A stretch of DNA of 64,000 bases from the NCBI RefSeq assembly GCF_006345805.1, contig NC_043008.1, forward strand, positions 63,116,001-63,180,000, read 5' to 3'. Each line of letters begins with the position of its first letter. The stretch's first letter is position 1. Position numbers: made by a program. The stretch comes from Octopus sinensis. Its lineage: Eukaryota. Positions 14,220 through 17,200 of the stretch are shown in pieces.

Positions 14220-17200
14220 TTTAAAATAGATTGATGTAACTCTTCACAAAGGTAAACAGTTGACGAAGAGCATGATTCAATTGTAAGAGATTTTATTAGT
14301 TGAACGATATTTCAACAGTACATCTGTCTTTGTCAAGTTCCAAATAAGAAGTGATAAAAATTGAAAATTACAGAAATTTAAGCGTAAAGTATGGACGAGA
14401 ACAACCAGCATCCACACGATGATGGAATGACATCATCAGTTTTTAAGTGTGTGTGTCTGTATTTGTCTCCATCACAGTTTGACAGCTGGTGCTGGTGTGT
14501 TTACGTCCTTGTAACCTAGCAATTCAGCAAAGATGACTGATAGAGTATCTGGCTGAACAAACAAAATTAAGTATTACTGTTGATTCATTCAGCTAAAAAT
14601 GTTTCAAGGTGATGCCCCAGCATGGCCACAGTCTCATGACTGACACAAGAAAGATAAAGAGTTATTTACTTTTGTAACAAATATTATCGTTCAAGTGATG
14701 GCGAAGTAAAGTGTGAGTCAGTTATTGGCACTTGTATGGTTAGAACATGTATGACAGTCTCTCATATTCTCTTGCATCATTCATAATTAATTCTAGGCAT
14801 TTGAATTCAACTTTTAAATTAGGCCTTCTTTTTCTTCTTATTTCCTATTTTTATGTCTTTTCTTGTAGGTTCATGAAGATAAATTTTACAATATTGAAGT
14901 GACATCTATGTGAGAAATTCTAAAGCTTTATCAAGAAAACCAGGATGAGAGCATTGGAGACAAATTGGTGCAGATAGCAATATTTAATACTCAAACTTCT
15001 TATCCAACAAATAAGTTTTGATTTTAATATTTTATAAGTAAATTTTATTGACTTGTCTCTAACAAAGAATATGCAAATTCCATTTAAGAATTTTCTTTTG
15101 ATTGGTTATCTTTCTTCATCTTTCAGACAGAATCTTAACAGGGAAAGACAATATTTTTCATTACTTGATTCATATTTCACACTTAAATGTCTTTTCCTTT
15201 CTTTTTTTCTCTTTCTATTTCATATTTCATTTTCAATTTAATTGAACTAAAAATATGGTTGGTGATGTCGATGGAGATTATAATCATACCTGAAAGATAA
15301 GCAAACCTAGAAAATATTGAATAAATCTATTAAGATCAAACAGTAAATATAGAGTTTTTCTTTTACAGCAACTAATTTAATTAATGTGTTGGATTTCTTA
15401 AAATTCAAACTTTTAAGAAATTTGGAATTTTATAATTCCAATGAAACCTACCAATTATAAAGAGGATTATTCTGGATTAAGTGAGAAACCAATAAGTAGA
15501 TTTTGCTGTCAGTCTTTGCTGTGTACTTTTAACACATTTATTGCCATATTTCTGTTGAAATATGCAGCCTTTGTTTCAATTGATTTTGGAAATCAACTTT
15601 TATCTTTTATGAGGGGTTGCTGAAAAGTTCCTGGCTTTATGGATATCATGGAAGACCTGGTTGGAGGTTCAACCTCCCGATTTCTTTTACAAAGCTTAGA
15701 AAAATTGAAACACCAGTGTAATATATGTATAGATCTGAAACAGGAATATTTTGAATAATATCATAACTAACTGATCCTATATATATTTATATATATATAT
15801 ATATATATATATACATTTTTTTATATATAGAGGGCATTATACATACATGCCAGAAGGCATTATACATACATGCCAAACGCTAAGAGGGACAATCAGTCAT
15901 TTCTACCAAAAATATTACTAATCCCACCGAATGCAATTTTTCAAAGTAAGACATTTAAAAATATAGACCTGTATCACAGTGATTTCATACTTATGTAATC
16001 ATCAGCAGGCCTGAATGTATTATAAATAAACAACGACCCTGCCCCGCTTAAGCCGATCAGCTAACTGATCAACATCAACGAAGCACATGGGTGAGTTTAC
16101 ATATACTACATCCGGATAAATGGCAAACTTTTACGAATTGCATTTCGGGAGAGGAAAAGTTTTTTCGGAATAAAAATTTAGCAAATAAGGACAACTACTT
16201 AATAAGGAAAACTTAACAAGAAATTGTCAGGTAGATAGCGTAAAAACCTCATAAGAGAAAAAATTTCGAAAATAATTATTTCTTATTGAACATATTAATT
16301 TATATATAGAGGGCATTATACATACATGCCAGAAGGCATTATACATACATGCCAAACGCTAAGAGGGACAATCAGTCATTTCTACCAAAAATATTACTAA
16401 TCCCACCGAATGCAATTTTTCAAAGTAAGACATTAAAAATATAGACCTGTATCACAGTGATTTCATACTTACGTAATCATCAGCAGGCCTGAATGTATTA
16501 TAAATAAACAACGACCCTGCCCCGCTTAAGCCGATCAGCTAACTGATCAACATCAACGAAGCACATGGGTGAGTTTACATATACTACATCCGGATAAATG
16601 GCAAACTTTTACGAATTGCATTTCGGGAGAGGAAAAGTTTTTTCGGAATAAAAATTTAGCAATTAAGGACAACTACTTAATAAGGAAAACTTAACAAGAA
16701 ATTGTCAGGTAGATAGCGTAAAAACCTCATAAGAGAAAAAATTTCGAAAATAATTATTTCTTATTGAACATATTAATTTATATATAGAGGGCATTATACA
16801 TACATGTCAGAAGGCATTATACATACATGCCAAACGCTAAGAGGGACAATCAGTCATTTCTATATATATATACATATATTAAAATCAAATTACAATGAAC
16901 GTAAACAAACAAACCAAGTTTGCTTTAGAAGCATTGAGATGTCTTAGAAAGTTAAAGAAGTGATATTAAATTCTCAAACGCAGGATAATGCTAATAATAT
17001 AGCCTGGACAGGATAAGCTATCCCTATTTTGCCAGCCACCAACACATTTGTCTGCAAAATAGGGGTAGCTTATCCTGTTCAGGCAATATATATATATATA
17101 TATATATGTATATAAAAAGGAAATGAAGAAAATGCTGACAAAATAATTTAAGTAATTTAAGTAATTTAATTAGGTGAAAGTTCTTTTTACCGGTTGCGCA

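What the first reader, a model, noticed from the sequence alone, without database searches (positions are those of the whole stretch)
15820..16863. Non-coding ~478-bp tandem repeat with one intact hammerhead ribozyme per unit (retrozyme-like)
Seen: near-identical head-to-tail units in (TA)n with no listed ORF. Each full unit has a minus-strand type-I hammerhead with a canonical CUGAUGA/GAAA core, a 6-bp stem I, a U-U closed stem II and an AUA cleavage triplet. Stem III (AUCAC-U-GUGAU) has only a 1-nt loop. Known: metazoan non-LTR retrozymes and Penelope pLTRs are tandem units with type-I hammerheads that often act as dimers, and retrozymes yield monomeric circular RNAs. Inference: a transcript would self-process into a 478-nt monomer, possibly a circRNA copied by a Penelope-like RT. 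I cannot tell whether this family is already described.
Basis: partly seen in the sequence, partly recalled or inferred. Interest (0 to 1): 0.9.

Follow-up and report, generated by a model that had tools for sequence, protein, structure and literature searches.

The report
Tandem repeat carrying hammerhead ribozyme motifs
A short non-coding 478-base repeat sitting in a TA microsatellite carries one self-cutting "hammerhead" RNA motif per unit, which makes it look like an ordinary member of the already described animal retrozyme class of small mobile elements rather than something new.

Summary
Window 15820-16862 is a head-to-tail array of 2.18 units of 478 bp, 99% alike, with no frame longer than 55 codons and 33% G+C. 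It lies inside a (TA)n run.

Each of the two full units carries, on the minus strand, a complete type-I hammerhead motif: CUGAUGA and GAAA cores, a 7-bp helix I, a helix II of U.U plus 3 bp plus a tetraloop, the near-palindrome AUCAC-U-GUGAU as helix III, and an AUA cleavage triplet. Such a motif turned up in 4 of 400 simulated 64-kb sequences.

The 478-nt RNA between the two cleavage sites folds, as a circle, far better than shuffles (z = -5.4). Two copies can form a double hammerhead.

Against: no Rfam hammerhead model matches, even at E<=10. There are only two copies, so covariation cannot be tested. No Penelope-like gene lies in the parts of the window I scanned.

The locus meets every sequence-level criterion I could test for a non-LTR retrozyme, a class known since 2020. 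Copy number, expression and cleavage could not be tested. Verdict: probably a new member of a known kind, of modest interest.

The parts
15820..16862 (-). Head-to-tail array of 2.18 units of 478 bp. Read on the minus (hammerhead) strand it is an 86-nt partial unit followed by two full units.
   Evidence: TRF; blastn; unit differences
15820..16298 (-). Unit 1 (479 bp; one extra T at 15954)
16299..16776 (-). Unit 2 (478 bp)
16777..16862 (-). Partial unit 3 (86 bp). It stops before the hammerhead position.
16443..16490 (-). Hammerhead motif of unit 2. Helix I 5' strand 16490-16484; CUGAUGA 16483-16477; helix II with GUAA loop 16476-16465; GAA 16464-16462; helix III AUCACUGUGAU 16461-16451; A17 at 16450; helix I 3' strand 16449-16443. 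Predicted cut between 16450 and 16449.
   Evidence: descriptor scan; read; folds
15965..16012 (-). Hammerhead motif of unit 1. Same as unit 2 except loop 2 is AUAA (15994). Predicted cut between 15972 and 15971.
15972..16449 (-). The 478-nt RNA that cutting at both sites would release
   Evidence: coordinates; circular fold -125.7 kcal/mol, z = -5.4 against 100 dinucleotide shuffles
15829..15875 (.). Twin 23-nt direct repeat at one end of the unit, also at 16308-16354 and 16786-16829. On the minus strand it folds into a long hairpin just before the UAUAUAUAAA end of the array.
   Evidence: TRF; fold -19.4 kcal/mol
15778..15829 (.). (TA)n run on the left side of the array
   Evidence: TRF
15802..15816 (.). 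Left copy of a possible 15-bp target-site duplication, TATATATATATACAT. The right copy is at 16861-16875. Weak evidence: the word occurs 11 times in the window.
16861..16875 (.). Right copy of the possible 15-bp target-site duplication, inside the right-hand TA run

Best explanation
The locus is one insertion of a small non-autonomous retroelement of the animal non-LTR retrozyme type.

Proposed mechanism (inferred, not shown). The minus strand is transcribed, probably by read-through. The two hammerheads, acting singly or paired as a double hammerhead, cut after A16450 and A15972. [quoted passage not shown] A host RtcB-type tRNA ligase closes it into a compact, highly base-paired circle. A reverse transcriptase supplied in trans runs more than once round the circle. 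The longer-than-unit cDNA is inserted by target-primed reverse transcription at a nick in AT-rich DNA.

This would explain why the array has 2.18 units. It would also explain why the array ends (15820, 16862) lie in TA repeats and not at the cleavage sites.

Shown here: the tandem array, the two complete hammerhead motifs, the absence of coding capacity, the unusually stable predicted structure, and the dimer-compatible helix III.
For: - Array of 2.18 units, 99% alike.
- Exactly two hammerhead hits in 128 kb of searched strand, both in the array and in register, one per full unit.
- The same descriptor hit 4 of 400 simulated 64-kb sequences (1 of 400 when strict). A hit inside one particular 478-bp unit is therefore expected about 1e-4 times or less.
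- The circular 478-nt monomer has MFE -125.7 against -91.1 +/- 6.4 for shuffles. 0 of 100 shuffles reach it.
- In the 1043-nt transcript, helix I of both hammerheads (7 of 7 pairs each) and helix II of unit 2 (3 of 3) are in the MFE.
- Cofolding two unit-2 motifs gives the double hammerhead as the MFE, -29.9 against 2 x -11.1.
- No ORF above 55 aa, and G+C 33%.
- Published criteria are met. [quoted passage not shown]
- bioRxiv 10.64898/2026.07.22.740005 (Methods and Results read): a TRF repeat with at least two consecutive units holding complete HHRs whose MFE is below -5 kcal/mol. Here the values are -10.3 and -10.5. Family consensus lengths there run from 51 to 972 bp.
- PLE-type elements insert with a bias for (TA)n and AT-rich DNA and form partial tandems (PMC8557442 passages; PMC11167929 main text part 1).
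Against: - No Rfam hammerhead family matches at gathering score on the window, nor at E<=10 on 1.3 kb or on 81 nt.
- The usual G10.1-C11.1 pair is replaced by U.U.
- The 48-nt motifs are not more stable than shuffles (z = -0.9 and -1.6; 33 and 14 of 200 shuffles fold as well).
- The hammerhead fold is not the MFE of the isolated 60-nt segments. It lies 2-3 kcal/mol higher and takes 0.1-0.5% of the ensemble.
- In the full transcript the cis and double-hammerhead folds lie 5.0 and 5.7 kcal/mol above the MFE, and helix III is absent from the MFE.
- Only two copies exist, differing by one loop base, so there is no covariation.
- There is no second copy of the unit elsewhere in the 64 kb.
- No Penelope-like RT or GIY-YIG domain appears among 20 of the 37 frames of >=120 aa, nor in six frames of 12001-20501.
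- No PLE-style minimal hammerhead is in the window.
- The possible target-site duplication is a common microsatellite word (11 occurrences).
- The plus strand also folds better than shuffles (z = -4.05). Part of the structure signal therefore comes from internal inverted repeats and is not strand-specific.
Confidence: 0.68

Rival explanations
1. An ordinary local tandem duplication (minisatellite) of non-coding DNA inside a microsatellite-rich region. The hammerhead-like motif would be a chance match with no activity.
For: - Rfam hammerhead models do not match.
- There is a U.U at 10.1/11.1, and the motif's stability is ordinary.
- The hammerhead fold is not the MFE.
- Only one array is in the window.
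- The window is full of other tandem arrays with periods of 62-331 bp and no hammerhead.
- At about 1 chance hit per 6-25 Mb, a large genome holds many chance motifs.
Against: - A chance motif landing in this particular 478-bp unit is expected about 1e-4 times or less.
- The motif is complete in all 13 defined core positions, with three helices in the right order.
- The monomer's predicted structure is far beyond shuffles.
- The near-palindromic helix III is the feature that published animal hammerheads share (PMC4209133 passages).
Confidence: 0.2
2. A pseudo-LTR or 3'-terminal remnant of an autonomous Penelope-like element. The repeats would be what is left of a partial-tandem PLE insertion, not an independent non-autonomous family.
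For: - PLEs carry hammerheads in pLTRs, form partial tandems with 5' truncation, and favour AT-rich or (TA)n targets (PMC4209133, PMC8557442, PMC11167929).
- The 2026 preprint derives retrozymes from pLTRs.
- The array reads as a truncated copy followed by full copies on the hammerhead strand.
Against: - The units abut directly, with no ORF between them.
- No RT or GIY-YIG domain is in six frames of 12001-20501.
- The only RT found is 8.5 kb away, and its best solved relatives are R2 and LINE-1 ORF2p, not telomerase-like RTs.
- The motif has a full helix III, unlike the minimal PLE hammerheads (PMC4209133; one search finds none of those).
Confidence: 0.07
3. A hammerhead-bearing repeat mobilised by a LINE-type machinery (SINE-like), not by a Penelope-like element.
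For: - On the minus strand the last unit ends ...UAUAUAUAAA and is followed by AAA, giving an A6 run at 15817-15822. Internal junctions instead continue UUAAUAUG.
- A possible 15-bp target-site duplication is present.
- Twin hairpins sit just before the 3' end.
- A LINE-class RT is in the window.
Against: - The A-run is 6 bases long in AT-rich DNA.
- The 15-mer is a common word in the window.
- blastn shows no similarity between the unit and the LINE fragment or its downstream repeats.
Confidence: 0.05

Closest known systems
Metazoan non-LTR retrozymes (Cervera and de la Pena 2020, PMC7229834; Li, Clavereau and Pollet 2026 preprint, 10.64898/2026.07.22.740005)
   Same: Head-to-tail non-coding units, each with a type-I hammerhead. 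Low G+C, and no LTR or ORF. A highly self-paired monomer. A weak base of helix II (U.U, as in axolotl HHR_Amex2). A helix III that permits dimeric action. Arrays of few units: per the preprint, 75% of families have a maximum of seven units.
   Different: At 478 nt the unit is longer than the 170-400 nt circles of the 2020 paper, though inside the 51-972 bp range of the preprint. Helix III is long (5+5 nt around one U) compared with the 1-2 bp plus small palindromic loop described for most animal motifs. The conserved loop 1/loop 2 contacts could not be recognised. Family size, expression and cleavage are unknown here.
Amphibian satellite 2 and Schistosoma/cricket satellite hammerheads (named in PMC7229834 and PMC4209133)
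   Same: A tandem genomic repeat with one type-I hammerhead per unit. The palindromic helix III allows a double hammerhead between neighbouring units.
   Different: Those arrays are long and exist in thousands of copies. Here there are 2.18 units and one locus in 64 kb.
Penelope-like element pLTR hammerheads (PMC4209133)
   Same: A type-I motif on a retroelement that forms partial tandems in AT-rich targets.
   Different: PLE motifs are minimal (no or very short helix III, long helix II, bulged base after position 9) and flank an RT plus GIY-YIG ORF. Neither feature is present here.
Plant LTR retrozymes (PMC4918200, search listing and abstract only)
   Same: A non-autonomous element whose RNA between two hammerheads becomes a circle.
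   Different: Plant elements have type-III hammerheads inside LTRs, plus PBS, PPT and 4-bp TSDs. This locus has type-I motifs and plain tandem units.

Membership tests
Hammerhead ribozyme, type I | Conserved core: C3 U4 G5 A6 N7 G8 A9 ... G12 A13 A14, the A15.1-U16.1 pair, and H17 not G | tested here: met
   CUGAUGA ... GAA, then A...U, then A in both copies
Hammerhead ribozyme, type I | Three helices round the core, with helices II and III closed by loops and helix I open | tested here: met
   Helix I 7 bp. Helix II is U.U plus 3 bp plus a tetraloop. Helix III is 5 formal pairs (4 bp plus a triloop in cis)
Hammerhead ribozyme, type I | G10.1-C11.1 pair at the base of helix II (highly conserved; PMC4209133 passage) | tested here: not met
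   U.U in both copies. A precedent is axolotl HHR_Amex2, which is active mainly as a dimer (PMC7229834 Results).
Hammerhead ribozyme, type I | Match to the curated covariance models (Rfam hammerhead families) | tested here: not met
   No hammerhead family listed at gathering score, or at E<=10 on 15700-17000 or 16425-16505
Hammerhead ribozyme, type I | Loop 1 / loop 2 tertiary contacts | not testable with these tools
   No internal loop in the 7-bp helix I could be assigned. The mussel retrozyme motifs also lack the conserved contact nucleotides (PMC7229834).
Hammerhead ribozyme, type I | Helices supported by compensatory changes among copies | tested here: inconclusive
   Two copies with one difference, in loop 2. 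No other copy is in the window.
Hammerhead ribozyme, type I | Site-specific self-cleavage | not testable with these tools
   Needs in vitro transcription
Non-LTR retrozyme | Tandem repeat found by TRF, with at least two consecutive units each holding a complete HHR whose MFE is below -5 kcal/mol (operational rule of 10.64898/2026.07.22.740005, Methods) | tested here: met
   (-10.3 and -10.5 kcal/mol). Caveat: I used my own descriptor, not their rnabob models, which I could not see.
Non-LTR retrozyme | No coding capacity, no LTRs, G+C below 50% | tested here: met
   Longest frame 55 aa, G+C 33.3%. The units abut head to tail. PBS and PPT motifs were not searched for.
Non-LTR retrozyme | Monomer RNA predicted to be stable and highly self-paired | tested here: met
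   Circular MFE -125.7, z = -5.4, 64% of bases paired
Non-LTR retrozyme | Multi-copy dispersed family in the genome | not testable with these tools
   One array in 64 kb. No eukaryotic collection was open. 0 matches in prokaryotic genome contigs, which says nothing either way.
Non-LTR retrozyme | Expressed as linear and circular monomer RNA | not testable with these tools
   No transcript data
Non-LTR retrozyme | Target-site duplication longer than 4 bp, when present | tested here: inconclusive
   The 15-mer TATATATATATACAT is on both flanks, but it occurs 11 times in the window
Non-LTR retrozyme | Co-occurrence with Penelope-like elements in the same genome | tested here: inconclusive
   None found in the parts of this window that I scanned. 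The criterion applies to whole genomes.
Penelope-like element pLTR | Direct repeats flanking an ORF with a telomerase-like RT and a GIY-YIG endonuclease | tested here: not met
   No ORF between the units. No RT or GIY-YIG in six frames of 12001-20501. The RT at 6735-7334 is LINE-class.

The most novel reading that the evidence does not exclude
The unit may represent an undescribed retrozyme lineage. Its hammerhead escapes the curated models: U.U at 10.1/11.1, a long near-palindromic helix III that works only as a double hammerhead, and no recognisable loop-loop contacts. It would be mobilised not by a Penelope-like element but by a LINE-type machinery that recognises the twin 3' hairpins. That would account for the short A-rich end and the 15-bp duplication.
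Probability: 0.08. Interest if true: 0.55.

Novelty: new member of a known kind. Interest (0 to 1): 0.3.

Why it matters
If real, this is one more family of genome-encoded ribozyme circles. It adds a data point on how far the hammerhead can drift and still serve a retrozyme: U.U at the base of helix II, and a long palindromic helix III. It also adds a data point on the insertion of such elements into (TA)n tracts.

It does not open a new question. The class, its tandem layout, its dimeric ribozymes, its circles and its likely link to Penelope-like elements are all in print. The practical value is as an annotation: repeats of this kind should be labelled as retrozyme-like rather than as anonymous minisatellites. 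Covariance-model screens alone would miss this one.

Tried and rejected
- Rfam on the whole window at gathering score, on 15700-17000 at E<=10 and on 16425-16505 at E<=10. There were no hammerhead or other ribozyme families. The listed weak matches (mir-297, snoRNAs, psRNA6) all fall far below their gathering scores, and I take them for chance.
- Other copies in the window: blastn with word size 7 and a 27-nt pattern with up to 3 mismatches find only the array.
- Prokaryotic genome-contig scan with the same pattern: 0 matches. It was a long shot and is uninformative for a eukaryote-like window.
- PLE-style minimal hammerheads: 0 in the window, against a simulated mean of 0.007 per 64 kb over 150 simulations.
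- Protein domains: of the 37 stop-to-stop frames of >=120 aa, I sent 20 to Pfam. The 17 left out were overlapping or simple-repeat frames. Only 6735-7334(-) matched (RVT_1). BUD22 at 40289-40657(-) was below its cut-off.
- Six-frame read of 12001-20501 with X at stops: no RT or GIY-YIG. Two sub-threshold matches lay in simple-repeat runs.
- tRNA or tmRNA genes: none, so no tRNA-derived SINE head was detected.
- Target-site duplication: found, but judged weak.
- Literature on taxon. From memory only, the 62-66-bp repeats of this window reminded me of cephalopod repeats, so I searched 'hammerhead ribozyme' plus 'octopus'. It gave 5 papers, 4 listed, none about such elements by title or abstract. 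A second search with 'retrozyme' plus cephalopod words was dominated by papers without 'retrozyme' and tells nothing. I make no claim about the organism, or about whether this family is in print.
- Not seen: the supplementary figures and tables of PMC7229834 (S1-S8) and of the 2026 preprint. They list families and descriptors and may bear on whether this motif is already catalogued.

What I saw of each paper:
- PMC7229834: abstract, Results parts 1-2 of 3, and found passages.
- 10.64898/2026.07.22.740005: abstract, Methods, Results part 1 of 2, and Discussion.
- PMC4209133, PMC8557442 and PMC7761336: found passages only.
- PMC11167929: abstract and main text part 1 of 2.
- PMC4918200: search listing and abstract start only.

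The statement that AUA is a cleavable NUH triplet, and that PLE RTs are telomerase-like, rests on these papers' passages and on recall.
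Full report
**What is there.** Tandem Repeats Finder reports one array at 15820-16862 with period 478, 2.2 copies, 99% matches and no indels. A blastn of one unit against the whole window finds the unit itself, a second full unit (479 nt, 99.4%) and an 86-nt partial unit (98.8%). Beyond those there are only chance-level words. Units 1 and 2 differ at three places: an extra T at 15954, 15994 T against 16472 C, and 16185 A against 16663 T. 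Unit 2 and the partial unit differ at one place (16329 C against 16807 T). The longest stop-to-stop frame in the array is 55 aa, and G+C is 33%. The array lies between a (TA)26 run at 15778-15829 and a shorter TA run that starts at 16861. The window has no N.

**The hammerhead motif.** On the minus strand each full unit reads AGGCCUG-CUGAUGA-UUAC(R)UAAGUAU-GAA-AUCACUGUGAU-A-CAGGUCU.

- I wrote a descriptor and scanned both strands of the window. It required helix I >=4 bp, CUGAUGA, a helix II hairpin of >=3 bp with the first pair allowed to mismatch, GAA, a helix III hairpin starting with A and ending with U, then H. It returns exactly two hits, at 16490->16443 and 16012->15965, in register and 478 nt apart.
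- Helix I has 7 pairs, one of them G.U. Helix II has U.U, then U-A, A-U and C-G, closed by GUAA (unit 2) or AUAA (unit 1).
- Helix III is formally 5 pairs around a single U. A 1-nt loop cannot form. In cis this gives 4 bp with a CUG triloop. Between two copies it gives 10 bp around a U.U.
- Helices II and III are loop-closed and helix I is open, so the topology is type I.
- The predicted cuts follow A16450 and A15972. The RNA between them, 16449->15972, is 478 nt.

**Is it more than chance?**

- With the loose descriptor, 4 of 400 simulated 64-kb sequences (first-order Markov, window composition) had any hit. With helix I >=6, II >=3 and III >=4 bp, 1 of 400 did.
- The motif is therefore rare per window but not rare per genome: roughly one per 6-25 Mb.
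- What makes this case unlikely to be chance is the place. The expected number inside one given 478-bp unit is about 1e-4 or less, and a tandem repeat is the known home of such motifs.
- The independent test failed. Rfam lists no hammerhead family at gathering score, nor at E<=10 on 1.3 kb or on 81 nt. The motif shares little with the curated seeds beyond the core.
- The 48-nt motifs fold at -10.3 and -10.5 kcal/mol, which is ordinary for their composition (z = -0.9 and -1.6).

**Folding.**

- As a circle, the 478-nt minus-strand monomer has an MFE of -125.7 kcal/mol, against -91.1 +/- 6.4 for 100 dinucleotide shuffles (z = -5.4, none as low). 64% of its bases are paired, and helix I closes the structure.
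- The plus strand gives z = -4.05. Part of the signal therefore comes from internal inverted repeats, which help both strands.
- In isolated 60-nt segments the hammerhead fold lies 2-3 kcal/mol above an alternative that pairs core bases with the 5' half of helix III. It takes 0.1-0.5% of the ensemble. Nearest-neighbour energies ignore the core's tertiary contacts.
- Two copies of the unit-2 segment cofold into the double hammerhead as the MFE, -29.9 against 2 x -11.1. For unit 1 an alternative of -30.0 wins.
- In the 1043-nt array transcript the MFE is -295.5. It holds helix I of both motifs (7 of 7 pairs each) and helix II of unit 2 (3 of 3), but no helix III. Forcing both hammerheads in cis costs 5.0 kcal/mol, and forcing the double hammerhead costs 5.7.
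- Both modes are thus energetically within reach, and neither is proven.

**Surroundings.**

- Of the 37 frames of >=120 aa in the window, I scanned 20 against Pfam.
- Only 6735-7334(-) matched: RVT_1, E = 3.8e-25. Its best solved relatives are R2 and LINE-1 ORF2 proteins, with no telomerase RT among the 14 matches. Its neighbouring frames read like the rest of a degraded LINE. It lies 8.5 kb from the array.
- Reading all six frames of 12001-20501 with X at stops gave no RT or GIY-YIG domain.
- No PLE-style minimal hammerhead is in the window, and no tRNA gene.
- The array is therefore not a pair of pLTRs round a Penelope ORF, and no autonomous partner was found in the parts of the window I scanned.
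- The sequence just left of the (TA)n run (15608-15778) is an inverted 74% copy of 18249-18419. The microsatellite may be the tail of another repeat.

**Ends of the insertion.**

- On the hammerhead strand the array is a truncated unit (86 nt) followed by two full units. Neither end coincides with a cleavage site.
- That fits a cDNA copied for more than one round from a circular or multimeric template and truncated at its 5' end, as proposed for retrozymes (PMC7761336 passages; PMC7229834) and for PLEs (PMC4209133 passages).
- The minus-strand 3' end has two 23-nt repeats that fold into a long hairpin (-19.4 kcal/mol). These are followed by UAUAUAUAAA and three more A.
- A 15-mer, TATATATATATACAT, flanks the array at 15802-15816 and 16861-16875. 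It occurs 11 times in the window, so I count it as weak evidence for a target-site duplication.

**Comparison with what is known.**

- The 2020 paper describes animal type-I hammerheads in tandem repeats of 150-450 bp. These have low G+C, no LTR, PBS or PPT, larger TSDs when present, circles of about 170-400 nt, and self-paired structures.
- It also describes, in axolotl, a U.U at the base of helix II and efficient cleavage only as dimers (PMC7229834, Results).
- The 2014 paper describes the usual animal architecture as helix I 6 bp, helix II 4 bp, and a short palindromic helix III that favours dimers (PMC4209133 passages).
- The 2026 preprint finds such elements with TRF plus an HHR descriptor. 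It requires two consecutive complete HHRs with MFE below -5 kcal/mol. It reports family consensus lengths of 51-972 bp, mostly arrays of at most seven units, and an origin from PLE pLTRs (10.64898/2026.07.22.740005, Methods, Results part 1, Discussion).
- PLE-type elements prefer AT-rich or (TA)n targets and form partial tandems (PMC8557442 passages; PMC11167929 main text part 1).
- This locus meets each sequence-level criterion. It differs in its longer helix III, the missing G10.1-C11.1 pair, its failure against Rfam, and a unit somewhat longer than the 2020 range.

**Verdict.**

- The most likely reading (about 0.68) is one insertion of a non-LTR retrozyme-type element whose RNA would be cut into a 478-nt monomer and circularised.
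- The chance-motif reading keeps about 0.2, because no independent model and no covariation supports the ribozyme.
- The class is known and already harvested by published pipelines. I therefore rate this a new member of a known kind, with interest 0.3.
- What would settle it is a genome-wide copy and covariation count, and a simple in vitro cleavage assay. Neither could be done here.

Noticed in passing
window 6006-7576 (-): A degraded LINE-class reverse transcriptase. Pfam RVT_1 matches at 6735-7334 with E = 3.8e-25, and the best solved relatives are R2 and LINE-1 ORF2p. The reading frame is broken and interrupted by a TA-rich run near 7400-7480.
   Followed up: partly
window 3056-6021: A large G+C-rich (48-50%) tandem array with units of 273-331 bp, 70-91% alike. 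It starts right downstream of the LINE fragment's last frame, so it may be a 3'-UTR repeat of that element. No hammerhead motif was found in it.
   Followed up: partly
window 2355-2557, 8696-9083, 39199-39433: The same 62-66-bp motif repeated in tandem at three places and in both orientations. It looks like a dispersed short repeat family. From memory it resembles cephalopod repeats; this was not tested.
   Followed up: no
window 40962-41515: Three head-to-tail copies of a 184-bp unit, 90% alike. No hammerhead motif.
   Followed up: no
window 17114-17389: A near-perfect palindrome: 126-nt arms, 98% complementary, 24 nt apart. It looks like a foldback or MITE-like element, just downstream of the array.
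   Followed up: no
window 16995-17085: A short inverted-repeat element (arms of about 35 nt) lying between an ATAATA stretch and a (TA)n run, 130 bp from the array (read). This TA-rich stretch seems to collect insertions.
   Followed up: no
window 15608-15778 and 18249-18419: Inverted copies (171 nt, 74% complementary) of another repeat. Further partial copies are at 17784-17917 and 18211-18347. The (TA)n that holds the array begins exactly where the left copy ends.
   Followed up: no
window 36456-37301 (+): A 281-aa open frame over a (TGG/GCA)-type 18-bp repeat. It has no Pfam match and is probably simple-repeat DNA rather than a gene.
   Followed up: partly
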